A stretch of 64,000 nucleotides of DNA, taken from Ascidiella aspersa. Its lineage: Eukaryota. Every line of letters starts with the position of its first letter. Position 1 is the first letter of the stretch. Below the pieces are notes generated by a model, which worked only from the letters and a program-made list of their open reading frames with translations, had not been told where the DNA came from and did not search any database. A program made the translations under genes and the position numbers. This document shows, piece after piece, positions 1-31,392 of this stretch. The stretch covers positions 12,028,001 to 12,092,000 of the forward strand of contig OZ004607.1 of the NCBI GenBank assembly GCA_963924565.1, written 5' to 3'.

Positions 1-930
1 ATTTCATAAGATGGCATATGCTACTACTAATGGCTGAATTCACACAATTTAACAGCAATCCTTCACAAAACTAGAAATTGTTGCCTCTTTGGCACCAATT
101 TTTCAAACTAACCACGTTGCTGGGATTTGACAGCAGACTGAGCATAACAGTCAGCTGCAACCAATGATACTGATTGATACTGACTGGCCCAATTTGATAG
201 TTTTTACCGGAGCTGGCGCCGGAGCAGTGGTATCAATAAGCTCCGGAGCTGGAGCCAGAGCAATTTAACATTTACGCCTGCTTCAATTAGCCCTGATTTC
301 AATATTATGTTTCACCACAAACTTTTTAACAGACAATTGTCACACTGTTCAACAAACAGCTATGGTTTCAATAAAAAAAATCTGTAAATCATGTTGTACT
401 AATATGCAATGATTTTTAAATTATTAAAATGGGTCTGTTTTAGCACATATCTTACTATAGGTTAAATGTTGACCACTTTATTTTATTTAGTTTGCGCTGA
501 ATTTATTTTAAATAAAAAAACAAGATAAAATATGTTATTTCTATGAACTACATTGTGAATTTGTCGTCAAGTTACGATTGTTATCTAATAATGGACTGTT
601 TTAGGACTGGGCAGAAACTGGGAAAAATGAAATCACATTTGCAACTGTTAATTAATAATTTATTGTTAGTTATTTATAGCAAATTTGACTGAATTTAAAA
701 GTTATCTGATTTATCAAATAACCTTTGAGAATGTATCGATTCAAGGTGGGTTTAATATGAGATAATCCTTGTGATATATTGCACAATTTTAGCTTACTTT
801 TCATAAAAATAAATTAACCTTAGGCTACAAAAGTTGCCTAATCGTTAACCTAAAACTGTAAATAAATATTTAGCAAAGATTGTAGAGAAAGATAGACTTG
901 GTTAGACAATACTAAACGTTGATATCTTAG

Positions 931-3555: not shown

Positions 3556-3557
3556 TG

Positions 3558-3984
3558 CAGGGGTCGGGAACCTATATGGCTCTTTTGATGAACGAATCTT
3601 GCTTCAAGAAAAATCTAAGCTAATGTTTCTGAGCATGATCTCAAATAAAACTTCACGCTGCACGACCGCTTTTTTCTTTAGTTTTCCTTTTTCAACTCAC
3701 ATAATGGCAAATTTTCTGCGATTCGTGCGAATGCTATTTGTTTCGAGCCTGTTATACCCTTCAAAGAAGTCTCTTATATTAAAGGCGAAAAGTTGCGCAA
3801 ACTTAATTAATTTTTAGTGCATATTATGTTCTGTTCTTTAAACGAATAAACGCGTCCGTGTTCAATTTTGTATTTTTTTCCAACCTATACCTACGTTAAA
3901 AAGTGTTATATGGCTCTCATTGAAATACAACAAAGAATATTTGGCTTATATTGCTCCTTTAACTAAAAAGGTTCACCAACCCTG
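3558..3984. mobile_element. Non-autonomous hAT (Charlie/Buster-like) MITE
   Basis: Termini CAGGGGTCGGGAACC ... GGTTCACCAACCCTG; 8-bp TSD gtgtaatg/gtctaatg. Confidence 0.75.
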
Positions 3985-4137
3985 GTCTAATGTGTTTATA
4001 TTTTTTTATATTTGTATGACTTATCCATATTTTTGTAAAATAAAAACTTATTTGGAATATGAATACATGAAGCGTAGGTATAGCTAGGTAGTAAAAAAAT
4101 CATTCGTGCAAAATTGGAAATCAATTAGTGGTTAATT

Positions 4138-5122
4138 TTAAGCCTTTCAAACTGATTTTTTATATCCGTATTACTCTGAAGCCCATTAAAATTTATTTCG
4201 CTTAAAGTGAAACTAAAACAATGTGCTATGTTCGTTAAAAGTGCGACATTCTAAGCACAGAATACATACATTATATCGAATCTAAACTTTTCCAAAGAGA
4301 TAGCAGAAAACTAAAACAGTGCGTATTATACCATTAAGTTAAAACCTAGGGTAAAAGTAGAATAATTTTCTACTTTTACCCCAGACATAATTGAACGCAA
4401 GAAAACTTTCACAGATGATGTCACCAATTCTTGTCCTAACCAGTCATTTAAAATAGGTAAAACTTAGGAAACCTCTGGTTATCGTTCCACATGGTACACA
4501 AGTTTATCGGACACCGCTGACCACCTTTTATACACCCCTGTCTTTACAATTTGAGCAAATAAATTCCTTGTGAGATTCTCTAGATTTGTTTTAAACTAAC
4601 TGGTTTTAAACAAATTTGTTGTAGAAGTTGAAATTAAAGTTCTATTGTTCCTTTTGGTATACATACTGCTTGTAAAGTGTAGATTAATTAAAATTAAGCA
4701 TTCTTCGTGACCAATTAAGGAATCATGCTATACCTAGTGGTTTCACCTTAATTTCCTAATGACTATAAGCCTTTCAAACTGATTTTTTATATCCGTATTA
4801 CTCTGAAGCCCATTAGAATTTATTTCGCTTGAAGTAAAACTAAAACAATGTGCTATGTTCGTTAAAAGTACGACATTTAAGCACAGAATACATAGATTAT
4901 ATCGAATCCAAACTTTTCCAAAGATATAGCGGAAAACTAAAGCAGTGCGTATTATACCATTAAGTTAAAATCTAGGGTGAAAGTAGAATAATTTTCTTCA
5001 AAGAACGCAAGTAAACTTTCTCTAATGATGTCAGTAATTTATGTCATAACGAGTGGTTTAAAAAAGGTAAAACTTAATAAACCTACGGTTATCGTTCCAT
5101 GTGGTGCACAAATATATCGGAT
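4138..5122 (+). repeat. Diverged local direct duplication (~4138-4512 vs ~4766-5122)
   Basis: Both copies start TAAGCCTTTCAAACTGATTTTTTATATCCGTATTACTCTGAAGCCCATT and end ...GGTTATCGTTCCA..GGT.CACAA...TATCGGA. Confidence 0.85.
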
Positions 5123-11300: not shown

Positions 11301-12794
11301 TAAAAATCTCTGTAGTGCCCCTCTTCCATTGATGCTCTAGGCACCGGTGCTTATTTTGCTTAATGGTTTATCCAGCAATTACTAAACTAGAGGCTGAATA
11401 AATACATAGATAAAAACAATAGTGGATGTCACTGAAATATAGCATTAGTTAGAGTTTTTATAAATCAACTGAAGATTCATCTTGAAAGTCAAACATTTTA
11501 AATGACTAAAAAGTTATACTATATTATTACAATTACAAATATTTTTAGGATAACTCGTATAGGGGTCGCGCCCAACGTTATTAATAGTAACAAAAGTCTA
11601 ATGATAAAATTTGTTAAAAATTATAAAAAAAATTATTTGTTTGGAAATTTCTCAGAGTTTGCTGGCTAAAAAGTTTGTGAAGTTTTAATTCAGCGCATAA
11701 TGAAGAGTAGTGACCCTAACCCACGCATTTTTTCATCATTAATAACAAATAAATCATTCACGAACAAATCAGAGAAAATTTGGTTATATTTGAGTTGAGA
11801 TTTAACAAAAAACATTTAACGAATTGGTATGTAGTCTACCGGTTGGCTAGACGTCACAAAAGAATAGGTTTTTGATATTCAAAAATGCAACTTTCACGTG
11901 ATGATTAAACTTCAAGATTGAAAAGGACAGCGTTGTGTGAAATAGCCTTCGTGACCAGAAAACGCTCAGAATAGGATAAAAAGCACGTTGTGGTAGGCAA
12001 ATAACATCAAAGCCCAAATAGCTTTATTCGCCATTTAACCTATAAATGTTTGCTTAACATTGATGACCGTCGCATTTAATATTTTCTTCACGTCGATGTA
12101 CAACGTTCCTGTAGAATCACGGTTTTCTTGATTATGTGTGACGTCGTTTATTTGCAAAACAAATGGAACAGAGGACAAAAATAACGACTGTACATTTAGA
12201 GCATTTGCAATAAAGAAATAAAAAATAAGCGAAATCAAAAGAAAAAACACTGAACAATCTTAAACAAAACAACTTTAAATTGAGAGAGGACATAGATTGT
12301 TTCAAATGACGACATAAAACAACCATAATTTGAAAAACACGTGCTGTTTTCAATCGTATTACAGTAATCGCGAAGGCCTGGAGATATTTCTTTCGCGAAG
12401 ACCCTGGAGATATTTAACATAATAGAAACTTAAATAATTCACGCTAAGCGGGGGGTTATTCCCCCTTAAGTTCGCCCTTGCCCACCAAACCTTTAATGAT
12501 TTAAGAACTTTATAGAAGTTTGGTGAAATATACCAGACAGCCCAAGCATAGGTGCTCCAAAAGCATATAAATCATATGTTCTTCGAATATAATTACAGTA
12601 CAAACGGTTAACGTCCTTCTTTAGCAGAAATCTTTTGCAAAACAACTAATACAAATAGTGAATTTTTCGGAAGATATTTGCACAAATTTACAAGATTGCA
12701 TGTGTGCTTGTGGCGCTTGCGGATTTCACAAGAAATCTTTACGTATCGACAGTGAAAAAATCGAAACATTTTAACAGATTGCGCAATCTGGGTG

Positions 12795-15700
12795 TTAGAT
12801 ACCAACAGTCGGTTCTTCGGGTGGCGCATCTTCTTTATTGCTGGGCAAAGGTGTCGGTTGTGGGGCTCCAAGAGGGGCATTTTGATCCAAACTTCGCCAA
12901 AATTCTTCATCTTCGCTCATCGCCAACGCCTGACGCTGTCGATTCGAAAGTTCCCTGTGCAAATGTTTTGTTTTTATTTATTTGCTGTTAAATAATAAGT
13001 AGGCTTATACTGCAGCCTTCATTTGTATAGGCTGTTGGATTTGATGTGTCATTTTTTACTCCCACTATAGAGCAGTTGCACTCAAGAATTAAATTTGAAA
13101 ATTTCGAAAATCAAAAAATTGTGTTCTTTCAAAAAATCGCGTGAGGACACTTTTTTTGTTGAGATAAGCATTTTTAAGGTTTAAAATGCATGGTAAAATT
13201 CGCACAGAAATCCCCGAATGACGAATATCAATAAAAACAAAAAACTCACCATTGTTCGTATTTGAAGTTACAAGGCAACCAGCATACATCTTTGGTCAGC
13301 TGAGAGGTTAGATCACGCGCCAGTTTCTCGTAACCTTCGGTGATGATCTGCAAATAATCCGGACCGGAGGACATCGAAGCAAGCTGGGTCATGTTCATTC
13401 GATTATATCGGTTCACAACCCCAACAACGTAGATCTGCAAAGTAAATTGTGTTTGAAAAAGTAGCTTCGTTTTAGCACACTTGTTTAGGGGTAATTCGAT
13501 ATTAAACGTATTAAATAAATTCGTGACAATTTAAGAGATTTGCTAATACGGTCAACAGACAGTTTGCATCATACAATATTCAGGACGTATTTTTGACAGG
13601 CAACACAAGCAACCTACGCCTAAAGTTTGTGCTCACGGCGCTAAATAGGATTTTGTACCTATTCTACTGCATTGCTTTGTATAACCACGCCGTTGATTCG
13701 ATGCGTGTCATTTATTGTTGCGAAACGACGAAGCGTTAATTTCACCCTGTGATATATCTAATGTCAAAATAGGTTAGGACTAAACCGTTAAACAGACACC
13801 TTGTGAAATCCTAAACCGTTAAACGGACACCTTGTGAGAGTGAAATCCTAAACGAAACTTCACCCTTCGTCATTCATGAACAACAAAGAATAAACATAAC
13901 ACTCTTTTCGGTCGATTTATACCGGGGCGGATATAAAGTAAAAGAAAGGGGCAATAAACACCGCACATTTAACCCGAGCAAAACAAACCCACCTTGACAC
14001 CTTGATCCCTGATAGCCTGAGCAGCCTTTTCCACTTTGTCGGTTGCTTTTCCGTCCGTGATGATGACAATCACATCGGGTACGTTGGGCCGGTTTCCGGG
14101 TGCGCGGAGACTTTCTGTGTGCAGATGCCACAGAGCTCTACCAGTCAATGTACCTATAAAAACATTTTAGTTTTAAAACGTTAAATTGTACGAGAAATGG
14201 TTCTTAGTCATTTAATTCTAAAAATACGCACCTGCAAATTTAAAATGGAAAGATAGTTTTTTAAGATTGCATAACTTTTATAAATCAGGGGTGTGCAGGC
14301 TTTTATACCAACGGGGCAAATACGTACCCGTAATAGACCACGGACTAAATGATTTTCCATGGACCAGTCCTACCTCCACTAAAGATTTTACAACATAATG
14401 TTCATTACCAAAGGGTTCATTATTCATTAATAATATTAAACGAAGATTTCGTAAACTAATTTAAAAAAGGCTGACCCAATTTTATAAAACAACTGACAGT
14501 ATTACATCCACGGAGGTGCAAGGCTATGTGCTGAGGCAATATAAATGGGCGACAACGTATTACACATAATTAGCAACGTATTACACAGAAAATTTCACCA
14601 TCAAGGTTAAGGGACATGGTGAAGTATGTATTGACTTAAACAATTTTTTAGCCGTTTAAAGAAAAAAAATCTGTCAAACATGCGTTTTTCTAACCTCTTC
14701 CATTGTAGGGAATCTTATTCAGCTTGTGTCGCAGCTGGCCAACGCTCATATAGTCGCCCATCAAGATCTCATTCCTCTTATCGACCCTTCGGTTGTACCG
14801 GGCGACCCCAACTCGCATATCTTCGGGTCCAATTACGAACGAGTCAAGCTGGTAAAAAAACACGTAGTTTTACTAAAATTGCGGTACTTTTCAGCACTGG
14901 ACGTAATAGACAAAGAGGAAGGAATAAACTTTACGGTAGTGTTTGTTTTTACAATGATTCCACAAATTTTATACCTGGTATTTTGGCCTTATAAATGACC
15001 TAACTTGAATTAACTGTGATAAAACGCTATTATATAAAGGACCTAAACGTCATTGGTGAAAAAGAAAGGTAAAGCCAAACAACTGAAGAAGTTGTTCTTA
15101 AACATAGCGAATCACTAATAGTAGGCCTATACGCAAGAATTTTCGGGTCATATAATTAGTTTAAAAAAATTAACGCAGGTCTAATGTGGCGGGCCAAAGC
15201 TATATTCTACTTTTGTCGTATTACATAGAAAATAAAATGTAAAGTATAACTTGAATCGATTTTTTGACGGGTTTCAATATTAATAAGCATATTAGAGTAA
15301 AGTGTATATTTTTAAAATGCGTTACGCAACGACAGTTTAAAGCTGGCGTCCAGAAAAGGTAAGAACCATTGAGTTTTCTCTAAAGCAAAATAACACAGAC
15401 AAATTATAATTAGTTTATAACGTGTTACATGTAACCTAGATAAGTCTTAACGAAACTCGCAAAACCGTTTAAGGGTCCTCTTACCAGAAGATTTGTAAAT
15501 TCGATAAGAGTCTTCCAGTTGCTCTTGCCCACGGAAGAGGAGGAGTCGAGGAGGAAGAGGAGGTCCACGAGGGCGTGAGGTGGACACGGGAGGTCGCAAC
15601 AGGGCACCTTGCCAGACCATGTTTGGCTGCACGATTAAAAGGGAAGATCAAGTTGGTAGGTTGCATTAGTTACAAAGCATGAGGTATTAGGCTTTGTGAT

Positions 15701-18700
15701 AATATAAATGACGAATTCAATTAAACATACTTGGTAACGAGTATCGACGAATGCAATGCGCATTTATAGATTTCCCTAAAATGGCATCAGGTCAATTTAA
15801 CTTTACAGCGTTGGCATCAACATGAAACATTCAACTTAAAATGGTGAACACGTTTTATTGTGACCAATTTTTGTAAAGCAAACAGAAAACGGGCAACAAA
15901 TAGCAAATTATAATTTATTACATTTAACAATTGGCCTAAATAACCATATTTAACTAAAACGTATGTAATTAAACCATTTTAACATATGCCAAGCCATTTT
16001 CGTAAATGACTTGAGTCAAGTCTTGTCTAAATTATTGTAGCCCTCCTAAACCTGCTTAGTACGGTCTCCAGTCATAAGATTGACATTAAACATTAACGCC
16101 GGAATAACACATTTCGGAATAAGACCTAAATGACCAGAATGTACCTAACCCCCAAACCTATGCTTCGAACTTCATAAGTAACTCGCCTAATTTCAACCTT
16201 AACCGAATATTCATATTACTCTGTTTTAGATAATGTTACTTTTCTTTGTGTTCCCGCCCTATACATGGATATTCCTATCGTTGACTTTTCCATTTTAGTC
16301 AGTGGATGTCGACGTTCATAAATGTAGAAACACGGGTTGAACTTAGACAAAAAAGTTTGACTCACTCGCTCTGGCACGTGATCCTATCCTCTCCACCGGC
16401 AATGTCAAGTTCATTTGGACAAGAAAAATCACAAGTATCGCCAACCTTGTAGCCTGTGCAATTTACCGTACCGCCGTTCATTAGGTTTTGGGGAGGCACT
16501 TTACAATCTGAGTAAAACAAATTGGTTAGTAGAACTGATTGCACCTTCCAAAATAAACTGCAACCAGGTACTTGACCAAAAACTACTGCTCTGCCCTAAT
16601 CGTCCGATGCCATCTACTGCATATTAGATTTAGAGCAATGTGGCCTAATATTTCTTGCTATATTTTGTGAACTATAGTGGAGTTTCAAGTTACGAAGAAA
16701 CCGAGTTTCTCTACAATGAATACAACACCTGGTCTCAAAGATAACCTAGTGATATATAATGATTTATACATAATCAAAATACGCGATTTAAAATTGAAAA
16801 ATATGAGCAATATATATAGGACCCCATTTAACCCACGTCCTACAACGTGTTTTCATCAAGAGTTTTTGTTCTTAAAGCTAATGAAGGTATTTTATTTAAA
16901 GGGGTGGTGTTTATCAAAATTTATCACGGACCAAGGTAGTTTGTAAGTAACTCGGCTCGGTATTTTCAAATTACTGCAGCCGAGCAACATCCTTTTTGAG
17001 TTATCGCAGAGACCTATAAAAAGTACTATTTACGAAATGATGAGACTTACCTTTAGCCACGCAGAGAGTGAGCTCGAGCGAGGACCAGTAGCCGTCCCTC
17101 AAACACCTGACGTAGGACGGGCCGTGCTGCTCATACCCTACTCCGCAAGCGTACCTGCACCGCGAGCCAAACTTGTTGCTGTCCGTGCATTCCAGCTTTC
17201 CGTTCTTTGGCGCGCTCAGTTCCCCGCAGAAAACTGGCGGCAAAAAGATACAGTTTATTCGGTTCAACGCTATGTTCGCTAGTTACTTGGGTTTTGCACA
17301 AAACAATACGAATTTTAAAATGCTTAACGAGAAAAAAATTGAGTTAATCGCAACCAGACAAACATGAAAAAAATGATAGCGTATATATTTATTGTTAGTT
17401 TTTCGTTTTCGTTAATAGGCAAGAAATATACAGAAATATTACCTTTGGTATCGCAAATCTTTCCCCGCCACCCGGGAGTGCATTCGCACTCGTAATCATT
17501 GATGAGGTCATTGCAAGTACCGTGTATGCAAGGGTCTGGCTGACAGTCGTCTGAGAAGCAAAAAGGTTAGTTTAACCTATCAGTCAACACAGCGGCCATA
17601 TTTGGTTTCAAGTATAATCAAAGCGTGTTATCCTGTGCCTGTTTATGCCGCAGTGTTTTGCGTTTTTCATTAAGCAGGATTACAGGTCGCCCATATTTGG
17701 GCTAATTAAACTTCTTCGCGTGTTGCAACGTCTGGGCCCTGGCGTTTTGTTTTTAGAAACAGGAATAATTATAAAGTGTTTTTTTCTCAGACAGGGCGCC
17801 CACATTTAACTTCACGTGCCCCTCCAGTGGATTTATTTCAAGAACTGCTAATTCATTTCAAACGTTTTAAAGTTTTCTGTTTTGCATAAAAAGTCTCACG
17901 TCATTCCGCCTCTGATCGGATAATGTACATTGTGCAATTTAGTTGGAATTGCGCGGGAAATTTTGCAATGGGCACCGGCGAAAGTTTACAAAGAGCCAAT
18001 GGTTCAGCTCGCGTTTACACAACATATGCTGAAATGTAATCCATTGCAAACGGGGTCTAAAATCGCTTAACTATCAATTGAGAGTTGGTCAACTTTCTAA
18101 TTGTTATTTGTAACTCCTTTAGCTTAATAGAAAATGTATCACAGTATTATAATTAACTGTGGTAATATGATTGTCGTTTTAACAAAAAAAATCCTTTATT
18201 TAACAAGTTTAGTAACCCTTGGTCTGTCATTATCAGAAAAACTATACTCCACCTTGATATTCCATTTAACCTTTCGGTACACAAGTCAAATGAAGGTTAC
18301 AAACTGCATTATTAATTCATGCGATTAACAGAGAACGCTGGGTAAATCCCAAACTTATAACTCGGTTATTTGCATTTATTTTAAATTGAAAGACGTAAAG
18401 GTTAAATTGAAAGGATTAATTTAAAGGTTACTAAAAGGTTACTAAAGGTTAAATTTAATCTTTTAAACCTGATAAGTTTACGGGCCGTACTTTAATGGTT
18501 GTAAACATAATCCACCTTTTCGTTATGTGACGCATGTCGTGAGCTTAACTGCTCTTTAGATGTGAATCATAACGGGATAAAAAACACAAACCTACCTATC
18601 TGGAGACAAGTCGGTGGGTCGTTTTTCCACTTTCCTTGTCGGCTGCAGGCAACTCGTTTCGGACCAGTGAGCATGTACCCGCTTTTGCACTCGACGTCAC

Positions 18701-21700
18701 AAACTGACCCACCGTTGAAATCGTTGCTGCAACTGAGAACCATGCCTTCGACGTCCAATTCAGGGCAGGGCTCTGAAATTGAAAACGCAAATATTGTTGT
18801 TTTCCCTGCAAAACGTATATTGGGAATTAAGTTAGGGTATTAGAGCATTAAATGTAAACGATTTGCCAGCGATCTCAAAAAATCCAAATTTTGAATAATG
18901 AATCCTTTTGTATTTTGCAACGACCGCTTGTTGATGTTTTTTTTATTTATAGGTTTGTCAGTAATATGTGTTTATGCAGAACGCAGGACGAAAAATCTGT
19001 TTGGTTGATCTACCTAAAAACAAACATAATTTTGTTCATATCACATAACCTTACGCAAATTATAAATTCGATGACTAAACATTTTTTTAAAGGTATTTTA
19101 AAGTATCAGTAATTCAGTAATAGCAAAAATGCGTTCTCAGAGAGAAATTCCAAATTGGTTTACAGAAACGACGCCCTACAGTGTAAGGCACTAAAGTGCG
19201 GAAGATAAGAACCCGGCAGGTGCGGAAGTATGTATAGTGGCTTACAAGAGAAAATCGCATTACATGTTACGTCACTACTGTAAGTTGCATAAATCACACA
19301 GGACAAAGATGAACTTGTGAGATACAGCATAACCAAGACGTCATGGACTAGTCTGTCTGAAAGTTTATTAACCTGGCAGATACATTATATATGAAGTATG
19401 AACCAATATCGGAATAAACAGAAACAAATCCAATCAGTGCAAAAAATGCTGAGCAAATTTGAATCCCAAGCAACTAGTTGTAAGTTTAGCCTTATTTATT
19501 GCAACAGCGTAAAAAGGTATAACGCAAAAACGCAAAGTGTATCGGCGACTCATCTGGTTAAATTACAAAGTATCTCCGACCGTAATTTATCGAATTTGCG
19601 TCCTGTTGTTTATTGGCTGAGCAGGGCTTAAAAAAAATTACTTAGTTCGAGGCATTGCGGCGTCAACGCTGTCCACGAGCCGTCATTGGAACAGGAGCTT
19701 ATGCCCACTCCCACCAAGTAGTAACCTCCAGAACAGGTGAAAGTGCAAACTGACCCGATCTCGTTTCCGCTGCTGCAGATAACCATTCCGTTCGTGATAA
19801 GGCTGCGCTCCTCGCAGTATTCTATAAGTTAAAACATAATATGTGTGAGTAGTGTGACATCGTTTTGTCTTTATTATAATGATAAGAGGCTATTCAGTGT
19901 AAAACTGTTTTTTGCGTATTTCAAAATGCCTAGTTTAAAACTACTTTTAGATGTAATATCGGTAAATGCTATAAGAAAACTTTAAAATCCACACAAGATC
20001 AAATTTAAAAAAATTATAAACTTAAGAAAGCTGACAGAGGTCACTTACTAACAAGGAAAAGTATACATACCAAGGGGTGAAAAAATCAGTTGTTCGGGAG
20101 ATCGGAAGGGGTCCAACCATCCTAACACACGACCGCAAGTTGTACCCGGCCCGTTGCATAGATCACCCTCACAACAACATCTGAAAATATAAACAAGTAG
20201 TCGGTGGAGAGCCCATATTTTGGTCACTGAACACTATTGTATTTTAGTTGCTTGTGTCCCAATAAAATTTGGCTAATATTGCAAAATTCCTTTTCTGCAA
20301 TAGATTTTAAAGGGATACTCCGTGAAAGATAAATAGATATAATTACCTGCAGACCTCGGGCGGATCTACATTTCGATTTCTGTCCGGATTGCATTGTTCC
20401 GTGACATTCTGTGGAAAATAGTGGGGATTGTGACGTCAATCGTTCAGGTGGTGTATTAAAGTACAAACAATTATAGGAAAATAACTTAGCTTCATTGGGA
20501 AAAAGCAGTAATCGTGTACAGGCAGGCATAGGAAGCCAAGCCAAATGTATACCAAAATTATTTAAAAAGTAGAAAATTAACTCCTAATGACATAATAATA
20601 ATTCTACTCTTTCGAAGCCCTGCTTTTCTTGCAAAAGGGCAGTGAAAGCGTTATTTGTAGGAAAAACATCCCTTTATCGAGAACCAAAAAAAATATTGAT
20701 TGTTACCTTTTCAAAAAGTTAAAAGTGCTTTCTTTTTTAAAACAATAATGAGCCCTGTCATTTTTACCTGCTTCTCGTTATCATCGCAGGCATTGGGCTG
20801 TTTGCAGACAAGAGAAGCCCTGTAGCTGGACGGCTGGTATTTGCCGGTGTTGGTTACCGAGTGACGTCGAACCACGTTGAGGCAGCCGCTTGACTCAGGG
20901 GAGCATTCCACGATCGCCATGCACTCGTCACGTGACATCGCGTCGACGCACCCGTAACAACGTGTCACTGCGCATGCGTAAAGAGAGACTATTTTTACAA
21001 GCGTGTTCTTGTTTCCGTACAGCTTTATTTGGACCAAATAATAGCTTTTCGCGATTCGCTAGAATCCATTACAAGGCATTTTACGTTCGATAAAAGTAAT
21101 TAATAGAAATGTGTCTATAGTTTCATATTAAACTTTGGGCTGAAAATTTATTTTTCGCGACATATCTTGTTTTTGCCACTATCCGTTTTTACTTTATTTT
21201 GGTATGTTTAGAATTTTCACTTTTTCATTAACATATGTTTTACCTGTAATCTGGCCGAGGGTATACTTTTCAACAGTGTAATAATTTTGATCAATGGCAA
21301 TAACGAACCCGGGGACGAGGTCGGAAGATAAATCTTTGCAATTAACGTTCTAATAGCTTTTCTCGCTTTAAGTTTGCTGACTCAATCTATTCGCTCAAAT
21401 AACTTTTGAATAGTTTAGTTAATGTCTAATACGAGGTTTTGCACACAAAAAATAATACATTTACGCGTATCAACCTCCTGCCGGTTCAAAATGAGAAATT
21501 AGCACCACATTGGCCAACTTACGTGTCTTGATAGGCTCCGAATAAGCGGTGACTGAATCTTTGCCAGCGTTGCTTGCCTTGATGCTGAACGTGTAAACTG
21601 TACGAGGTGTCAGTCCGGTAGCGGTGTAAGAGCGTGCGCTCTTGTCCAATGTTGTGTCTAAAATAGTAAAAAAATATTCCAGCATTTCGGTTCTCAACCA

Positions 21701-24700
21701 ATGGCACGTAAAAATCATTAACGGATCTCAATAGATTGTTTTTCGAAGAAACATACCTTATTAGCAAATGCACTTTTAGCTATTGCATAAGTTGGTGGCC
21801 AGCGTCGTTTACCGTGGAAAAAATGTATACGGCCATTTGATTTAATTGAATTGCGTTTTTTATTGCTAATTAGCTTTGGCCGGTTTGAATATTTTCACTG
21901 CACTAATGTTCACACATATTATTAATTAAAAAATATATCACGTTTGTCTCGCCGTCAATACTTCCCGATCGTTCGGTGACATTTCATGACCAGTTTTTGT
22001 ATGACGTAATCGAGATGCGTATTCTGTCGAATTGGCAAGCATGCCTGGATAAACAGCGACAATCGAATCGCCGTTTCGTGACAATGGAATCGCTTTATCC
22101 CCGGTTGGAGTCGCCACCTTCGCTCGAAATGCCATTCGTGCCGAAGCCGCTTAATTCTTGCAATAATCGACAACAATAGCAGGCGGCGCTCGGTGCATTG
22201 TAATACAACAATCGGGCAGCGCGGGAGCTTCCAGATTACGAGTTGCCAATTGATCATCGCGTGGTGGGCACATTACGCATTGCGCAACCAGCATTCAGTA
22301 ACTGGATTTTGATCGTTGGATAACGGTTTTACGAACAAGTAACGTATTTACCAAATATTTAAATTAAAAAAAGAGTAAATATAAACAAAACTTAACAATT
22401 AGATGTTTGTATATTACACCAAATGAGGATTTTATCATAGCTTATTACCAAATTTCAAATAAAAAAAGAAAAAGTGCTAAAAAATACTTCTATTTTGGGC
22501 GACACTAACTATTCTAGAAGTTTTGTTTTTAAACTTTCAATTAAATGCACTTTAAATATTGTAAGCTTTTTTAATAGTAAAAACGGGATAACTGCTGAGT
22601 TCGTAAAAAAAACTATTATATTAACTTTTTGCTATAAAAAAATTAAATTAAAGTCATTCAAACATGCATGTTATTTGCTTCCTTATTTGCGTAGGGTTTT
22701 TTCGCAATTTTATTCAACTTACCGACAAGGATTCGTCCGTGGGTGTCGTCGCGCACCGTGATGATAAACCTCTCCTGTGATCGTTCTGTTACGTAATATG
22801 GCAGTCGGAATGACCAAGTGATGCTGGTTGCGTGCAACTCGGAAGCCAGGACCTCGGCGATTCCGGGAACGGCTGAGTTTAAAAAACACTCCGTTACGAA
22901 TTTGCTTCTTTGCGCACAAGCTTCTGTTTAACGCCGCCTTGGCGCAAATCCCAAAAAAAAGTTATTTCTTGTCCGATAGTGTAAAGCAGTTCTTCCCAAC
23001 CAGTGGGTCGCGAAGCTATTTCAGGTGGGTCACGAAGTACCTCTAAATGTTACAGTTTTCTATTAGATCGGGAAATTATTGCATCACAATTACGTAAAGT
23101 TCATGCATCAATTTCCCAAATATGTAACAATTAGATGTGTTGTGTCGCATTACTTATTTCAATATGTACGCCAGTAGTAAAGATGGAAGGTTTATGTAAC
23201 TTTAGTTGTTTGGTCATACCTCATTGTGGGTCGCACAATATAGTTCGCATTAAAATGTGAGTCGCGAACTGAAAAAGGTTGGGAAGCACTGGTGTAAAAT
23301 ATGTTTTTTTGCAAATTCAGTATCCCGGCGGCGGTCGGTGTTGAAATGCAAATTAATCATAAACGTCAACAATAATTACCGACCGCAAATTTATTTTAGC
23401 CCTAAACGTAAGCGTTTGGTTGGAATATCTTAAAATACTTTTATTTAAAGAAGATGGACAGTCATTTTGCGATAAATCACTTTATTGTTGTCTTCGCCAA
23501 GAAACGCAAGCTTTCGCTATTCAGAGGCGTAGCTAGGGGGGTGCGGTGGGGTACATATGTCCCCGCGCCAAGGTACAGGGGCGCCAAAATAAGGCCTACA
23601 AATGCCTAATGAGCCGGCTGCTTCTTTAAATACAATGTTCTATTAAAATTATTTTTTTTTTCTTATAAAGTAAGGTATACTATGTTAATCTAATAGAAAA
23701 TGTGATTGGACATTGAGGAGGGGGCGCCAATTTTATAGTTTGCCCCGGGCGCAACATACCCTGGCTACGCCTCTGAAGCTTTCTATGCGATCAAATATTG
23801 TTTTATATTTAAACGCGTTGCGTGCTGTTACTATAGATAAGAAAGCTCAACAATATTGCAATTGACACCCACCAGTGGTGACTTTCAGGTCGACCCTTTT
23901 CGAAACCGCGACTGTTCTTCCGGCAGCGGAAACTACGTCAGTCCAGGCGGAAATGATGTACTCGGTGGACGGCATAAGATCGGGTATCATCACGAGTCCA
24001 GCCCGGGTAGAGGACGGCAGTCGAAATTCGGCGGAGACAGGTTCATCGGCCTTCCTGAAAGAACAAAAAGAAAACGGTTCTAAGACTAAGTATGGGGAAA
24101 AATAAAACAAAATTCTACGCACTTTTTTTTTTTTTTTAAGCCTTGCTAATTTCATAATAAGCAACAACAGGGTCGCAATACAGCAAATAGGAAATTTAGG
24201 ACAAAAGTGATTAACTACAAAAAATATTGATCAGTTATGCTCGTCAATAAATACAAAAAAGTGTATTTTTTTTATTTTGGAGTCTACATCTCGAAAAGGC
24301 CACTAAAGACGGCAACCCAGTGTACAACATGCACCATTCCACATTTAAACCGAATTGATGGCATATAAACTACTCAAGTAACCAATCTACCGAAAAAATT
24401 ACTCTCAATCAAAATGGTGCAAGTTTTCTTACCTGTAACTGACCATATAATGACTGACCCTGTCCCCGTTGCCCGGTCGCGCCATTGTGACGAACACTGA
24501 GACCGTGTTGGTGTCAAAGTTCATCAGTCGAATTCCCTGAGGTGGTCGGGGCCCTGAAGATAAATAGCGATGTTCCCGTTGACGATACCAACATTATATG
24601 ATTACAAAACTTTAGAGTTTTTAACAATCTTTAAATAGATTGTTTATGTATGCCATATAGAATAATCAAAGGGGATAACCGGATATAATTTGTATCACTT

Positions 24701-27700
24701 TCAACAAAGGTAAAATATTAAAAAATTAAAATTGCCGAATTTAAATAAATTAATTGTTCGCAGAAATATCTTTCCACGAATCCGTCTGCCATTGACGATC
24801 GGCATTCGTGTTCCAAAATGATGTACGTGACTTTTTAATTTCCATTGTCGATTTATATTTAAAGTGGTTACAAATAATTAACACACCGAAGTCTGGCGAA
24901 TATTTGCACAACGACACTGTTGCGCACGATATCGCAGGATTTACATTCAAATGTTTTACAAATAGATCGTTCAAACGACAACAAAGTGCTTTCCGATTTC
25001 GGTAAATACCGTGAGAAGCCTATTAAGTTGCAAATCACAAACAATTACAGAAACAGTGCAGAACGTACAAGACAAGGAGGCGACGGCAATTTACATTTTT
25101 GCCGTTTGAAGGACAAGAAGTTCGCGAACTTCAATCGGTTGTTCTTTGCAGCGGATAATAACTATATTTGGAACACCTACTTGTGTAGAAGGTTTTAAAA
25201 ATCTTCTTGGAGTAGATTGCTGACTTGTGCTTGGCGATAACGCTGATTCTGAAAAGTAAGCAATGCACAATTAAAAATTTAAAAACAAAACATCGCGTTT
25301 CAACTTATTGCATCCACCACGACTGTTCTAACTTCATAAGACGATTTCCGTTTGTTTTTAAAACAACCCAAATAATTAAATCATCGAACGTCGAATTTAT
25401 AATCCGCAGACTTGGCACGCGAACCCACGAAGTTGTCGGAATACATAACGCATTTGCCGTTTATTACTTTTTCGCAAAACGTAACAACGTTAAAAGTTAA
25501 CATTCTTCGCAGGATTAACCGCAACGTATGGAGACATCGTCGAAAACGTATATATTGACTTTATAAACACACGGAAACTTACAGCGATAAGGTTAATCGC
25601 TCTGGCAACATCCAAGTTACCGCGATCACCTGAAGATCTTATCTCGAGTGAGGTTTAGTAAAGCTAATTTTTATTAACCTAATGATAGATCGTAAAATAA
25701 ATAGATTTTATCAGTTAAACGTTTTTCGTTAGTCTTATGCGACAAACATTACATCGGTACCGGACTGCTTTTTAGCAAAATTTAATTAAAAGTGTGTGAT
25801 GTTTTCACACCCATTTCGACATAAATCGCAGTCGGAAAACAACTATTTTTGTGCTTTAAGCATTGCCACTTTCAATGCCTTTTAATTTTGAATTTAATCA
25901 CGAAAGTTCAACTCTAACAAGTTGCAAAAGGCCATATTTGGTGTGAAACCTTTACCGGTCCAGAAAGTCCCTTAATCCGCAGAATGCGTTGTTTACTAGA
26001 TACGGATCAACTGAGTGGTGACTTTACGAACTTGTAACTTGTTGGCATGTCGCATTTAATCGTCGGATTAGTCGCGACAATCTCGTCCGAATTGACCAAC
26101 ACCGGGTTCGAGAGCCACGCGATTATACATGACGTAACAACGATGCTAGAACATAGTAAGTGTTGTGTGGGTGTGACGACATAATTGCGACAAAAATTGT
26201 GTAGATTTAGCATTTTGTCGAGACATTGCAACTCCCCCACCCACGCTGAAATGTACACAAATCGAATTAAAATGTTTTGTTATCTGCGGTTACAATAATC
26301 ATGATCAAATCGTATCAAACCCATAATTAACAAGATTAACGTTGTTCGGAAAAGCAGTTTTGGTCGAAACAATTACGTCTTTCCAAAACTGGAGAAAGGC
26401 TCAAAATACTGGTCTACGCCTAAAATTTTTAACTTGTGTGCTGTGATGTTAAAAAAACTTTAATCTACAATGAGTATAACAAAGTCTTACCTGTATGGGT
26501 TTCCGGCTGAGAGTCCCCTGACCAAGTAAGTAAGGGTTTTCGGGGGAAGTTTCTGGGTAAAGCTGAGACCAGCGATACCGGAATTGTTGCGCAGGATCAC
26601 CGGAGCTATTCTGGTGTTTCTCCGCGGTGACAGTTGGACGTTAAAAAAGGAAGCCGAGTGGTTTTTAATATCTGAAAAAAAGATCGGTGGTTCGAAAAAA
26701 GACTTTTGGTAGTTAATAGATTTATTTGGATATTTAATGTAAATTAATGTCATAATTGAGCTACTTATCTAACCTAATCAATATATGATTTGTTATCAGT
26801 TGAACCGTCGTTAAAACTGAGAAAAACTAAGAAAAAAATTTTTTTTTTTGATTTTACCCGTCATAAAATAAAATTTTCAACCGTCGTATTGTACGTAAAT
26901 CTCAGTTAAGTATGCTAAGACCTAATTTACCAGAATGATAAACAAATGCTGGCGAACTAACTGCAATGTTCGCAACAGGTTCGTTGCATTTTTTACGCGT
27001 AACAGGAGAAAAGTTTTATATTGCTTTTTATTCTATTTATCACACGTCGAAGAATTGGTATCCCTGAAGTAACAGTAGTTTTTTGGTACTTTACAGTTAA
27101 ACTTGTCTTATCCGCAGTTTATTAACGTTTATCTGAACGGCGTAACCCGCAGGTTTGTATTTGTATCTGAATAATCGCGTTTAAGCCTTTCGTAAATCTT
27201 CTACGGGCACCTGGAGCTACGCTGCAAATCCGGTGAAGCGCAAAACAGATTCGTAAAACTGTAGCTAAAGTCGCATTTCAGTTATTCGCTTCCACTGATG
27301 TACTTTCGATGCTCTTACGTCACATTAGCAATGCGACAATTATAAAAGCTTTTTTGAAATGACTTCGATGGCAATTTATTGATTGTCAAGATAAAAACTC
27401 TGATATTTAAGGTTAAATGTTGCTTTTATGGGATTGTTATCAAATCTAGAGCCCGCGTCTCAATTTGACTTTTTCGACCGTGTAATAAGTGGAAACAAGA
27501 CCAAGGACATTAAACATTTTCTTAATGTTATTTTAAATATGATCACAATTAGAGGAGTGTTGGTGTAACTGAACCTGTTTATACTTATGGGTGCCACAAA
27601 TGTAAACATTCACAAAGAGAAAAGTTACCTTACTATTTTAAGGTATTTACATTTACCTAAAAAGGTGATGAGGGCCGTGTCAGGGCTGAGAACGTAAACT

Positions 27701-30700
27701 TTGACGTCACGAATAGCAGGCTTGACCGGACGCCAGCTTAATGGAGCCTTTGGATTTATCCTTCCCGTGCGACTCTCTTCCTTCAAATAAGGCCTGCGAC
27801 CAAATGAGATTCTTATTCATCCGATCCTAGATTGCTATCAGTTCGAATTGGACACATAACTGACATTCGTGTTTAAGCCATGGTTTGTTACCTAAGGCAT
27901 CATTTTTATATTAGGCCTTTTGTGAAAAATGGATTTCTCAAAACCAGTTAATGTACATTTAATAGTACATACGATCCGTATACCGCTAAAGCTGATTCAT
28001 GCAATTAATCATAAGAACTACCTTAAACTTGCTTTAAGGTAAGTTAGATTTAGAAGCATTTCAAAACAAAGCAAAACAAATTGTTGACAAATACGGAGTT
28101 GTTGCGTGAAATGTTGGACCGATGCAAACACGTTTCTTTCTTTTTCGTTGGGTTTATTTGGGGAAATAAAACTAACCTGCGCCGTCATCACTACACAAAA
28201 AGAAGTTTACAACAACTTCGTAAAGGCACTTACTTTTGATTGCACCCGTCGCCCTGGCAACATGACCGGCACACGCTGGGCGGCAAGTTGGCGTTTCGGG
28301 GAATCACCTCCCGTTGGATGACGCTGACTGCTGCCGGTTGGCATTGGCGGTAGTTCTGTGAAACATTTGGAAGTAAAATTCCAGCAAATTATAAGTAAAT
28401 TTAAGGTTGGGTTACACCTTTAAAGTTAGACAAATAAGCTTTTTCACCGACAGCTCTTTAAATTTCAGTAAGTGACCATTCCCTCTTTGAACGGGAATCG
28501 TGGGACATTTTTTCCAACTCTAGCTTTTGCGACGGCGATTTGTTTCAGCACTTTACTTCCAATTTTGTCAGATATTTGTCTATGTTAGTATATCATACCC
28601 GTCATATAAAGAGAGCGATCGGCAAAAATTGTCAGACGGCTGAAAGTAAAACCGGATGCTTTTAATAAATCTGCGGCCGGGTCACCTTGATGTACTTATA
28701 AGGCCAGAGGTCTAATGCGTCCAATAACACATTCTTCTTTTGAAAACTCGAGCTTTCATTTATGTTGCGAGATTGTGTTGTGAGTCGTGTCGCTTTGCTA
28801 CTAAAGACGCAATTTAACTTTAGCGCCAAAATGTTTAGGTATTTATATCAGACACAAACCAAATTCGTCAAAAACGCCTTAGGGAATGAAATGCGAAAAT
28901 TATATAAAATAAGTTCCTGGCAAAAACATCAGTTTTTACAAGGAAGGGCGACTAAAATTTTAACGCATTTAACAAACGTTGGACTGGAAGACCAGATATG
29001 CATATAAACTGGGCTTAGCTTTGCATGATACCATATTTATGCAATTGTGTTTGCCCTCGTGATTTTGTACTTTTGCGCAGATAAACGATTTATATTGCGT
29101 GTGACGTACAACAAAATTGGCATATGTCCAAAAACAAGGAAATCAATGATAATATCAATTGCAGCTGCATTGTGGGGATTTCCGAGCTACATCAAATTGT
29201 TGCGATTATAAAATCTGTGCAAAAAGGATTACGTGCCACAACAAAATATGGTGCAATACCGCCGCCAAATGTTAATAAGCATGTAATTAACGTCATGTTG
29301 GTTATTGAGTCACATCACGTTTATCTTTATTGGCAATCAAAAGCAAAACATCGCGGAATTGGGCCAAAAAATAAATGGAAGCCCTCATATTAAATGAAAA
29401 ACTTATTCCCATCACGGCATTTAAACTGCTGAAAGCAGTGCACGTTGTTGAACCAGTAGCTATCTCCTATGTATGGGTTGAATAGAAAAATTGCCGTAAT
29501 TTAGATTGATGATGCATAATAATAATTCGACGATGCCTTGTAACACAACAACTTGAATTGGGAACTTTATTCGAGCGAATTTCAATACTTGGTATCGCAT
29601 TAACTTTTTTGTCGTGTTCATTGCAGAAAACAAGCGAAAACAAGCTGCTTAACAAGTAGCTTATTTACTAGTTACGAAGTGTACAAATAATAGTTGCTCC
29701 TTGGCGCAACACGAAATCAAGGCCGGGCATAAGACGAAATTAAGAGACTTTTTGAAAAAAACGATTAAATAATCGAATTACCAGTTTGATCGCACGAACG
29801 CAAATACCTCGTATCGACATAACATATCCTTTGAGTCTGCACTAATCAATAGCAGAAAAGTGCATAACATGATCAAGTGCGACTTGAATGACGTCGATAC
29901 TGATGGATTATTGAATCCTACGAGAATGTCTGGACAAGAAAAATAGTTGGTCTATTCAAGTTGTTTCGTGGTAAAACGTTTCGTTTTTTTTGGGCGTCAG
30001 CGGGTAAAGTCGTTTGCTTTTGTTTACCGTATTTGGATGCGTACAAGAGAGGTCGAGTTAAATTTCCTCACAAACGTGCCCTATAGAAATGCCAAGGTTA
30101 AGTTTGAACTTTCTTCGTGCGTAAAGGATTTGCGGTCAGCGGCTAAACAGCCATGTTGCCATCGGATTTGCTTGCACAAAAGCTGGTGTGGTTTTATTGG
30201 GATGTAAACCGAGTTCATTTAACCTTACAAGGTATAATGCAAAGTCGGCGAAACTTGCCACAGTGCTTTGTTACATTTGTTTACAAAAAAACGCGTTTAT
30301 TTAATAATTTTAAATCGCAGTTCTACACCGAACGACTTTTCGCAGCGCAATAAACAAGTAATTTACGCAATTTATGTCGTGAAAAACGGGGTAGGATAAA
30401 AAGAAACAGAAAAACAACCGCTTATAATTTAACCTGTCTGCTGCTGGACCGGCACGCCTCGAACTGTTGACAGGCCTTGGAGATTCGCAAGAGTCCGTTC
30501 TCCATCCGTACCACGTTCTGGCAGCCGTCGGCGCCGCTCGGACACTTTCGGAGTTGAGTGCACTCGGCGTTCGACTTTGCGTCGTTGCAAACGTAACATC
30601 GCAGCCCTGAAAGCGGAAAGCGGAAGCTTAATAAGGATCGGGGTACATATGACATATATAACGGCTTTTCAGTTTCGTTTCCTCGAACCACGTATAGCGG

Positions 30701-31392
30701 GTCAAATCGTATGGCTATAGGAATAATATGATTGAGGCCCAAATAACGGGGACCTGTACCGCACTTTCGCCTTATAACGAAACAGAGTAACAAAGCTGGC
30801 GATCGAAACAAAACGTAATTTATATTATAAATTTCATAGTACCAAAATTACATTCTACAGAAAACATCACATTTCGACGTTTTAAGTTGTTACAAGAGAA
30901 AAATCATTAAAAAATTATAAATCTAGTTAATTTTAACTTATCAATCAAAATATAAATTAAATTTTGGCAATTTATTTCTGTGCGTTTCACTCGCATAAGC
31001 ATCGAACAATTGACATAAATAATAATTACGGTTGGTAAATGTATGGCGTAAATACGTCCTCCTTGGCAATATGAAATGATGCTGTCACAAACGAGTGTTA
31101 AACAAGTGAGGGGGGAGGGAGAATCACCAACGCTCTAAAATTCTAATGAATGGGTATTTTGGTCGAAACCACTTGGCTTACATCAGATTACAAGTCAAAG
31201 TGAGTTATTCTAAGAACGGCGTTTTGCAGCAATACTTTTCATTTTTTTAAGGCAAGCTTGTAAAACAAGCAGAGTTGCTAGTATAGCAATAACAATAGGA
31301 ACACAGTTGTTATACAAAAACTCCTTACCGTAACTCGAACTTGCAAAGGCGCCAACAATTGCCAAGAGCGATAAAACTTTTTTAACGCTCAT
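12795..31392 (-). CDS. Secreted mosaic protein, ~1098 aa: signal peptide, Ly6/uPAR (LU), 3x FN3, LU, 2x sushi/CCP, EGF, 2x CCP, vWA, acidic Pro-rich tail
   Basis: 23 frame-consistent exons, all introns GT-AG: 31392-31329, 30606-30434, 28355-28234, 27793-27657, 26671-26491, 25248-25181, 24553-24433, 24054-23873, 22872-22723, 21657-21523, 20967-20768, 20408-20347, 20180-20071, 19821-19642, 18772-18596, 17550-17443, 17233-17051, 16507-16366, 15626-15485, 14848-14695, 14153-13993, 13434-13250, 12954-12795 (total 3297 nt). Motifs: MSVKKVLSLLAIVGAFASSSYG (signal peptide); LRCYVC...CCQGDGCN and RCYGC...CCEGDLCN (LU); GLSAGNPY, DLMPSTEY, GLTPRTVY (FN3); C-C-W-C (CCP); DDCQPDPCIHGTCNDLINDYECECTPGWRGKIC (EGF); DLLFLLDSSSSV...GTLTG...ITDG (vWA). 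Confidence 0.9.
13250..15626 (-). other. vWA domain exons of the mosaic protein, with intact MIDAS
   Basis: DxSxS (DSSSS), T in GTLTG and D in ITDG are all present. Confidence 0.9.
13780..13853 (+). repeat. Short tandem duplication (~31-37 bp units)
   Basis: ctaaaccgttaaac(a/g)gacaccttgtga twice, plus a partial third copy. Confidence 0.8.
16366..19821 (-). other. CCP-CCP-EGF-CCP-CCP exons of the mosaic protein
   Basis: Sushi Cys/Trp pattern in four exons; one Ca-binding-type EGF exon at 17550-17443; phase-1 domain boundaries. Confidence 0.9.
22987..23291. mobile_element. hAT (Charlie-like) MITE in an intron
   Basis: TIR CAGTTCTTCCCAACC / GGTTGGGAAGCACTG; TSD gtgtaaag/gtgtaaaa. Confidence 0.85.
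23522..23775. mobile_element. hAT-type MITE in an intron
   Basis: TIR CAGAGGCGTAGCTAGGG / CCCTGGCTACGCCTCTG; internal GGGGCGCC motifs; TSD not clean. Confidence 0.8.

What the first reader, a model, noticed from the sequence alone, without database searches (positions are those of the whole stretch)
12795..31392. Uncharacterised secreted LU-FN3-LU-CCP-EGF-vWA mosaic protein
Seen: a complete 23-exon frame from signal peptide to stop, with no TM helix or GPI tail. Established: LU (three-finger) domains usually occur in small secreted or GPI-anchored proteins; CCP+vWA occurs in factor B/C2 (with a protease) and in SVEP1 (N-terminal vWA); a MIDAS vWA binds ligands in a cation-dependent way. This domain order matches no vertebrate protein I know. 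Inference: a lineage-specific domain-shuffled extracellular protein for tunic or adhesive matrix, gamete or self recognition, or complement-like immunity. Related LU/CCP/vWA proteins may exist under generic annotations in ascidians, so the novelty may lie in the architecture and function.
Basis: partly seen in the sequence, partly recalled or inferred. Interest (0 to 1): 0.75.

Follow-up and report, generated by a model that had tools for sequence, protein, structure and literature searches.

The report
Sea-squirt two-ended secreted linker protein
This is a real, transcribed sea-squirt gene, with an unstudied full-length counterpart in Ciona, for a likely secreted protein that adds a positively charged three-finger/fibronectin head to a rod ending in a predicted metal-dependent binding domain, and that likely ties negatively charged sugars to proteins outside the cell.

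Summary
The gene is real: 23 GT-AG exons on the minus strand, one open frame, no TM helix or GPI tail. Two corrections: it has three FN3 and four CCP domains (SP-LU-FN3x3-LU-CCP2-EGF-CCP2-vWA-tail), and exon 9 most likely starts at 22872, giving 1098 aa. RNA reads confirm 5 of 22 junctions exactly. Ciona LOC100182484 ('uncharacterized') is a full-length orthologue: 54% identical, 60 of 60 cysteines kept, so it is one gene and not species-specific. The LU-CCP-vWA core belongs to a large tunicate family (LU+CCP+vWA at 8 of 10 paralogous loci fetched) that databases label SVEP1-like or matrilin-like. The distinctive part is the front LU-FN3x3 cassette: single-copy, FN3 at 0 of 10 paralogous loci, and strongly basic in both species (pI 10.0 and 10.8, against 5.6 for the rest). 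The MIDAS is intact and there is no protease. Best reading, inferred: a two-ended extracellular cross-linker, with a polyanion-binding head and a cation-dependent vWA tail. Self or gamete recognition is disfavoured. No paper on it was found in ten searches. Verdict: new architectural variant; function untested.

The parts
31329..31392 (-). Exon 1: ATG and signal peptide (aa 1-21, cleavage likely after about aa 22)
   Evidence: hydrophobic N-terminus also in Ciona; cleavage site by inspection; no RNA depth here
28234..30606 (-). Exons 2-3 (30606-30434, 28355-28234): LU1, 12-Cys three-finger domain, aa 23-119, net charge +6
   Evidence: Pfam Toxin_TOLIP 34.6 bits; profile and fold matches LYPD1/6/6B; charge
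25181..27793 (-). Exons 4-6 (27793-27657, 26671-26491, 25248-25181): linker and FN3a, aa 120-248; FN3a net charge +14
   Evidence: junction 4/5 read in RNA
23873..24553 (-). Exons 7-8 (24553-24433, 24054-23873): FN3b, aa 249-349
   Evidence: hhalign probability 95.6 to an independent FN3 profile
21523..22872 (-). Exons 9-10 (22872-22723, 21657-21523): FN3c, aa 350-444; exon 9 acceptor revised from 22923 to 22872
   Evidence: Pfam fn3; acceptor scoring; Ciona alignment
20071..20967 (-). Exons 11-13 (20967-20768, 20408-20347, 20180-20071): LU2, 14-Cys tunicate-type LU and linker, aa 445-568
   Evidence: Pfam Toxin_TOLIP 23.8 bits; 60% identical to Ciona; single copy in genome
18596..19821 (-). 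Exons 14-15 (19821-19642, 18772-18596): CCP1 and CCP2, six cysteines each
   Evidence: Pfam Sushi; Cys list
17443..17550 (-). Exon 16: EGF domain
   Evidence: Pfam EGF 35.1 bits
16366..17233 (-). Exons 17-18 (17233-17051, 16507-16366): CCP3 and most of CCP4
   Evidence: Pfam Sushi; junction 18/19 read 8 times
13250..15626 (-). Exons 19-22 (15626-15485, 14848-14695, 14153-13993, 13434-13250): end of CCP4 and vWA domain, aa 843-1039, MIDAS D859-S861-S863, T932, D964
   Evidence: Pfam VWA; motif positions; junctions 20/21, 21/22, 22/23 read in RNA
12795..12954 (-). Exon 23 coding part: charged, then proline-rich acidic tail and TAA
   Evidence: junction 22/23 read 4 times
12300..12794 (-). 3' UTR, at least to 12300 (edge of the stretch laid); AATAAA at about 12152 and 12028 is the likely poly(A) signal
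   Evidence: sense depth 14.2 in bin 12300-12946; hexamers; 3' end not mapped

Best explanation
The gene encodes one 1098-residue modular protein, likely secreted and non-enzymatic, that likely works as a two-ended cross-linker in an extracellular matrix or mucus. Shown: the frame, the domain order, the intact MIDAS residues, the lack of protease, TM and GPI parts, conservation in Ciona, and a charge split (LU1-FN3a-FN3b pI 10.0 here and 10.8 in Ciona; the rest pI 5.6 in both). Inferred: the basic head binds polyanions such as sulfated glycans, as the basic FN3 triplet of fibronectin binds heparin (recalled); the CCP/EGF run is a spacer; the vWA domain uses Mg or Mn at its MIDAS to hold an acidic residue of a protein partner such as a collagen or another matrix protein; CCP4 and vWA are predicted to be clamped by an extra disulfide (C842-C1039). 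Inferred origin: a standard tunicate LU-(CCP)n-vWA gene gained an LU-FN3x3 cassette before this species and Ciona split.
For: Full-length orthologue, 595 of 1098 residues identical, 60 of 60 Cys kept, gaps of at most 1 residue before the tail. MIDAS intact in both species. Charge split conserved; FN3a net +14 and Ciona FN3b +11, while 0 of 115 control FN3 domains reach +11. Family LU domains P0085 and P0119 are acidic (pI 4.9, 5.5), so the basic head is not a family default. Best PDB sequence match over the vWA domain is collagen VI. vWA and CCP domains occur in tunicate matrices: oikosins 17a, 23, 35 (PMC3390340, passages) and Ciona stolon ASP-1 (PMC12817120, section 3.3). Genes labelled SVEP1, P-selectin and matrilin-2 are enriched in the anterior ascidian endostyle (PMC9953650, passage); that these are this family is my inference from the labels.
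Against: No binding, tissue or stage data exist for this gene in my calls. Expression in the one RNA run is low (about 1x mean depth over most coding bins from 6% of the run), which fits a minor component better than a bulk structural one. No oligomerisation module was identified, so each chain would bridge only two partners. A basic patch would bind microbial surfaces as readily as host glycans. The basic residues are dispersed: no contiguous basic cluster in this species' head (0 matches for three patterns, against 4 in Ciona). The Ciona orthologue's identifiers were absent from the 11 supplementary files of one Ciona metamorphosis proteome (its id system was not checked).
Confidence: 0.45

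Rival explanations
1. Soluble immune adaptor (opsonin-like): the basic head binds microbial surfaces and the CCP-vWA end binds C3 or a hemocyte receptor.
For: CCP directly followed by a MIDAS vWA is the front half of factor B/C2 (architecture in PMC11312191, passage). PDB sequence hits include complement receptors, factor H and selectin. A two-ended microbe tether, VCBP-C, is known in Ciona (PMC6109156, passage). Sushi-rich genes mark Botrylloides blood cells (PMC12212465, passage).
Against: No protease domain follows the vWA. The vWA groups with tunicate CCP-vWA proteins (factor B was not in the tree). The gene is single-copy and well conserved, with vWA 66% identical to Ciona. CCP hits to complement proteins are generic.
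Confidence: 0.2
2. Secreted signalling modulator: the LYPD1/LYPD6-like LU domains bind a receptor (Wnt co-receptor or nicotinic receptor) while FN3 and vWA anchor the protein in matrix.
For: The LU profile's best PDB hits are LYPD1, LYPD6 and LYPD6B (E 0.0003 to 0.017); the LU1 model's best fold matches are the same proteins (Z 4.5 and 4.2). Low expression fits a regulator.
Against: The resemblance is mostly the cysteine frame and is shared by the whole tunicate family. The N-S-I at LYPD6's loop tip (its role in LRP6 binding is recalled) is not matched: N-G-L here, N-G-Q in Ciona. No GPI anchor.
Confidence: 0.12
3. Component of the larval or stolon adhesive itself: the basic head wets negatively charged surfaces and vWA gives cohesion.
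For: ASP-1 has one vWA domain and adsorbs to surfaces (PMC12817120, section 3.3). The head is basic.
Against: The size (1098 aa) does not match ASP-1, AAP1, APAP1 or APAP2 (47-65 kDa). Tyr is 3.5%, not enriched. The list of 26 stolon proteins was not seen.
Confidence: 0.1
4. Gamete or self/non-self recognition molecule.
For: LU proteins act in fertilisation (Bouncer, cited in PMC13719153). Two non-synonymous variants were seen among three coding differences checked (only the top 40 of 180 listed differences were visible).
Against: Single copy and 54% identical to a distant ascidian, with LU1 55% and LU2 60%. The two Ciona records differ at only 1 and 3 positions in LU1 and LU2. No membrane anchor.
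Confidence: 0.06
5. Two adjacent genes (SP-LU-FN3x3 and LU-CCP-vWA) joined only by prediction.
For: Junction 10/11 and exons 1-3 have no listed read support. The second half alone is a complete family architecture. The Ciona records are predicted models.
Against: Intron 10 is 555 bp, with a phase-matched GT-AG pair. Two Ciona records run through the same joint with no gap. Sense-strand depth falls steadily from the 3' end to exon 4.
Confidence: 0.04

Closest known systems
Ciona intestinalis LOC100182484 (XP_002123557.1, XP_078484039.1), 'uncharacterized protein'
   Same: Same domain order end to end, 54% identity, 60 of 60 Cys, intact MIDAS, basic head
   Different: Longer, diverged tail. It is a database model with no study found.
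Tunicate SP-LU-(CCP)n-vWA proteins (paralogues in this genome; P0085, P0119; Ciona 'SVEP1-like' XP_018670279 and Styela 'matrilin-1-like' XP_077975928 share the CCP-vWA part)
   Same: Extended LU ending VCRCC(C)xxDxCN with a shared phase-0 intron after Q, six-Cys CCP run, PCC..CPP junction into vWA; vWA in one tree group (89/95)
   Different: Two LU domains, three FN3 domains (0 of 10 paralogous loci have FN3), a basic head, and loss of the W before 'PxQC' seen in 8 of 10 family LUs
Complement factor B / C2
   Same: CCP modules directly followed by a MIDAS vWA
   Different: No serine protease; LU, FN3 and EGF added
SVEP1 (polydom), matrilins, collagens VI/XII/XIV
   Same: Secreted, with vWA plus CCP, EGF or FN3; collagen VI is the best PDB match of the vWA
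   Different: No pentraxin, HYR, collagen helix or recognised coiled coil; vWA is C-terminal; vWA falls outside the collagen VI/XII/XIV-like rows
LYPD1 (Lynx2), LYPD6, LYPD6B
   Same: Closest solved LU domains by sequence profile and fold
   Different: These are single-domain GPI-anchored proteins; here the LU domains sit in a 1098-aa secreted chain with a longer third loop

Membership tests
Tunicate LU-(CCP)n-vWA family (undescribed; defined here) | Signal peptide followed by an extended LU ending VCRCC(C)..CN | tested here: met
   LU1 and LU2 align with 10 family LUs
Tunicate LU-(CCP)n-vWA family (undescribed; defined here) | CCP run joined to vWA through PCC..CPP, with a C-terminal C..PC | tested here: met
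   PCCDLPCPP at 840 and DVCWLPC at 1033; same motifs in paralogues
Tunicate LU-(CCP)n-vWA family (undescribed; defined here) | vWA groups with the family's vWA domains | tested here: inconclusive
   Inside a 19-row group at 89/95, under the tool's 95/80 mark; one family protein (P0085, second vWA) fell outside; 35 rows used, chosen by score to my own profile
Tunicate LU-(CCP)n-vWA family (undescribed; defined here) | Single N-terminal LU directly followed by CCP or vWA, no FN3 | tested here: not met
   LU1 is followed by three FN3 and a second LU; hence a variant
Ly6/uPAR (LU) domain | CxxC start, CC/CN end, three-finger fold | tested here: met
   Pfam over cut-off. AF2 model of Ciona LU1 has pLDDT 71-75 over residues 1-50 and under 50 over 54-84; 29 of 30 VIA matches are LU-fold or receptor ectodomains, best Z 4.5
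LYPD6-type Wnt regulators | GPI anchor and NxI loop motif (recalled) | tested here: not met
   No GPI tail; N-G-L / N-G-Q at the loop
Complement factor B/C2 | CCP-vWA followed by a trypsin-like protease | tested here: not met
   Exon 22 splices to a 53-codon last exon with stop, read in RNA
Complement factor B/C2 | MIDAS-dependent binding to C3b | not testable with these tools
   MIDAS residues present; binding needs an assay
SVEP1 | N-terminal vWA, pentraxin and HYR domains, long C-terminal CCP array (recalled) | tested here: not met
   Pfam scan of the orthologue shows none of these; vWA is C-terminal
Matrilins | vWA-EGF-vWA with a C-terminal coiled coil (recalled) | tested here: not met
   One vWA only. 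The tail is predicted helical in a low-confidence model; no coiled-coil program was run
FACIT collagens / collagen VI | Gly-X-Y triple helix | tested here: not met
   None in the translation or in the Pfam scan

The most novel reading that the evidence does not exclude
Tunicates have built a large, unrecognised family of secreted 'three-finger - spacer - vWA' linkers, and this conserved single-copy member is the first protein to join LU with FN3: its basic LU-FN3 head is a new glycan-binding module that ties sulfated polysaccharides of the tunic or feeding mucus to the protein matrix, a job that fibronectin and FACIT collagens do in vertebrates.
Probability: 0.2. Interest if true: 0.72.

Novelty: new variant of a known kind. 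Interest (0 to 1): 0.48.

Why it matters
LU domains are known mainly from small toxins, GPI-anchored regulators and receptor ectodomains. A 2026 survey of LU architectures in 387 invertebrate genomes had amphioxus as its only chordate and names neither FN3 nor CCP among partner domains (PMC13719153, parts 1-3 of 4 read; figures and supplements not seen). This gene, and the family behind it, fill that gap in the vertebrates' sister group. Because the orthologue is single-copy here and present in Ciona, a knockout model species, the function of LU domains in a secreted mosaic can be tested directly. It also shows that 'SVEP1-like' and 'matrilin-like' labels in ascidian expression studies hide a separate family. 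The gene itself is already a RefSeq model, so the gain is in architecture and a testable mechanism, not in discovering the gene.

Tried and rejected
Word-index protein searches with single exons found nothing. With the full Ciona protein they found only itself and one collagen XIV among 7993 scored candidates; this is weak evidence on range, so I do not claim absence from stolidobranchs, thaliaceans or appendicularians. The 150 listed vWA hits held one full-length orthologue. The metagenome scan found no relative (60 pattern matches, 0 confirmed). AlphaFold on the full Ciona chain without alignment failed (pLDDT 33.8) and was not used, apart from noting a helical tail. LU2 against CCP4-vWA (head-to-tail assembly idea): no verdict, runs 0.42, 0.01, 0.00; not evidence either way. 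Whether LU1 and LU2 arose by duplication inside this gene: they are closer to each other (67 bits) than to two family LUs (40-57) and share loss of a Trp, but the 14-row tree leaves it open. ESM Atlas on residues 22-570 gave FN3 leads only, at most 0.81. No indexed RNA holder was listed; only the added raw-read run X3 was usable. Literature: ten searches found no paper on this gene or architecture; one search searched its accessions (0 papers). Most subscription papers are not held, Ciona studies mostly use KH/KY ids that I do not have, one paper was not held and one had no readable supplements. The open frames near 22180-21950, 26279-26010 and 29925-29780 were considered as exons and rejected: they are not needed for frame and have no Ciona counterpart.
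Full report
Observation. Joining exons by coordinate gives an uninterrupted 23-exon frame on the minus strand from 31392 to 12795, with GT-AG at all 22 introns. The order is signal peptide, LU1, three FN3, LU2, two CCP, EGF, two CCP, vWA and a short acidic tail. Pfam passes its cut-off for both LU first exons, FN3c, all four CCP, the EGF and one vWA exon. FN3a and FN3b needed an independent profile from 115 FN3 domains of other proteins: 13.2 and 22.7 bits, against shuffle maxima of 2.5 and 7.6; hhalign probability 70 and 96. The ESM Atlas scores the Ciona FN3a at 0.96 to fn3 clusters. There is no hydrophobic stretch after the signal peptide and no GPI-type tail.

A correction. My first model opened exon 9 at 22923. 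The Ciona alignment showed a 17-residue gap there. An in-frame acceptor at 22872 scores -0.5 against -8.6, where the other 21 acceptors score 0 to 12.2. With it the protein is 1098 aa with 60 cysteines, all matched in Ciona. No read covers this junction, so the choice rests on score and orthology.

Expression. About 6% of one RNA run gave 231 laid reads. Five of 22 junctions passed the 3-read threshold (4/5, 18/19, 20/21, 21/22, 22/23), all as modelled and of the right strand. Depth falls from 14 at the 3' end to zero over exons 1-3. Intronic repeats near 21.1 and 23.0-23.7 kb attract unrelated reads. The tissue is unknown.

Orthologue. A full HMMER search with one vWA exon returned 150 listed hits. 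One of them, P0088, aligned over residues 1-1086. It is Ciona intestinalis LOC100182484, 'uncharacterized protein', present as two full-length records. Identity to the revised model is 595 of 1098, from 36% (CCP2) to 66% (vWA) by domain. This places the window in an ascidian and makes a one-gene reading very likely. The LU2 and FN3c exons match only themselves in the own genome.

Family. The genome holds many tunicate-type LU exons (34 matches to one family LU) and vWA exons (25 matches). I fetched 10 loci picked from these hits. Nine show LU then CCP, eight show LU, CCP and vWA in order, and none shows FN3. Limits: the loci were chosen for such hits, some had only 0.5-3 kb upstream, and the FN3 profile came from six sequences. 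Unnamed database proteins P0085 and P0119 are SP-LU-vWA mosaics, and named relatives are labelled SVEP1-like, matrilin-1-like or collagen-like. In a 35-row vWA tree, the query, Ciona and a neighbouring short gene form a 99/99 clade inside a 19-row tunicate-rich group (89/95), apart from the collagen VI/XII/XIV-like rows. Two earlier AI notes on this genome describe the same family; my searches test that independently of their text. So the back half is a standard family member, and the front LU-FN3x3 cassette is the novelty.

Mechanism. The MIDAS is complete (D859, S861, S863, T932, D964) and conserved. The LU domains are closest to LYPD1, LYPD6 and LYPD6B by profile and by fold of a medium-confidence model. 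The most informative feature is charge. Residues 22-349 carry 49 basic and 21 acidic residues (pI 10.0), Ciona 49 and 16 (pI 10.8), while the rest is pI 5.6 in both; none of 115 control FN3 domains reaches +11, where FN3a here is +14. The charge is kept across about 50% sequence divergence and sits on different domains in the two species, which suggests selection on overall basicity. I infer a polyanion-binding head, a CCP/EGF spacer and a cation-dependent protein-binding tail: a two-ended linker, most likely in matrix or mucus (0.45). An opsonin-like role uses the same anatomy and cannot be excluded (0.2). Signalling (0.12), adhesive (0.1), recognition (0.06) and two genes (0.04) are weaker. 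A test of LU2 binding to vWA gave no verdict.

Known systems. It is not factor B/C2, SVEP1, a matrilin or a FACIT collagen by their defining features, though it may work like a matrilin- or fibronectin-type adaptor. Papers seen: PMC13719153 (parts 1-3 of 4; tunicates not surveyed; VWA appears in a figure legend, FN3 and CCP do not); PMC3390340, PMC6109156, PMC12212465, PMC9953650, PMC3308698 and PMC11312191 (passages); PMC12817120 (passages and section 3.3); PMC13225635 (supplement search only). None describes this protein. Ten searches found no paper on it, within the library's limits.

Verdict. A real, conserved, weakly expressed ascidian gene with an architecture I could not find described. 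It is a new variant of a tunicate LU-CCP-vWA design, already present as an uncharacterised RefSeq model, with function inferred only. Interest 0.48.

Noticed in passing
G000:C1:11,919,261-11,997,541 (L006-L014), 45-120 kb downstream of the gene, same strand: Four recent, near-identical (96-100% per exon) six-exon copies, each with an intact 269-aa frame: new signal-peptide exon, one CCP, vWA with full MIDAS that stops early in the last helix. Their vWA groups with this gene and its Ciona orthologue (99/99), so they likely derive from its 3' end. A fifth, lone signal exon without ATG lies at about 12,000,475. Expression not tested.
   Followed up: partly
G000:C1:11,910,000-12,033,000, including window about 300-4,800: A patchwork of 1.2-7 kb segmental duplications (82-99% identical) and about 1.25-kb repeat units surrounds the short copies.
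   Followed up: no
G000:C4:12,615,000-12,648,000 (L024-L027): A gene with about 38 CCP exons in a row ending in a vWA; its 5' end lies beyond the stretch fetched.
   Followed up: no
G000:C4:11,923,000-11,931,100 (L030-L031): A paralogue LU-CCP4-EGF2-CCP2-vWA, the closest architecture to this gene's back half, with an altered first MIDAS motif (DRSSS); a second LU-CCP gene follows it.
   Followed up: partly
G000:C3:38,769,000-38,822,000 (L020-L021 cover the upper part): LU followed by repeated CCP-CCP-vWA units; nine vWA exon matches in about 48 kb.
   Followed up: no
window 40,400-62,700, minus strand: Ordinary neighbours: Med21 (42088), an apparently intronless FOP-dimer/LisH gene like CEP20 (43280-42834), a forkhead gene (51034; FoxM-like by recall) and a PH-domain exon (60859; SBF/MTMR5-like by recall).
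   Followed up: partly
window 21,136-21,182, 22,982-23,292 and 23,522-23,755: High-copy short interspersed repeats in introns 10 and 8, with summed contig depth up to 20,000; the 22,982-23,292 element appears to have inverted ends.
   Followed up: no
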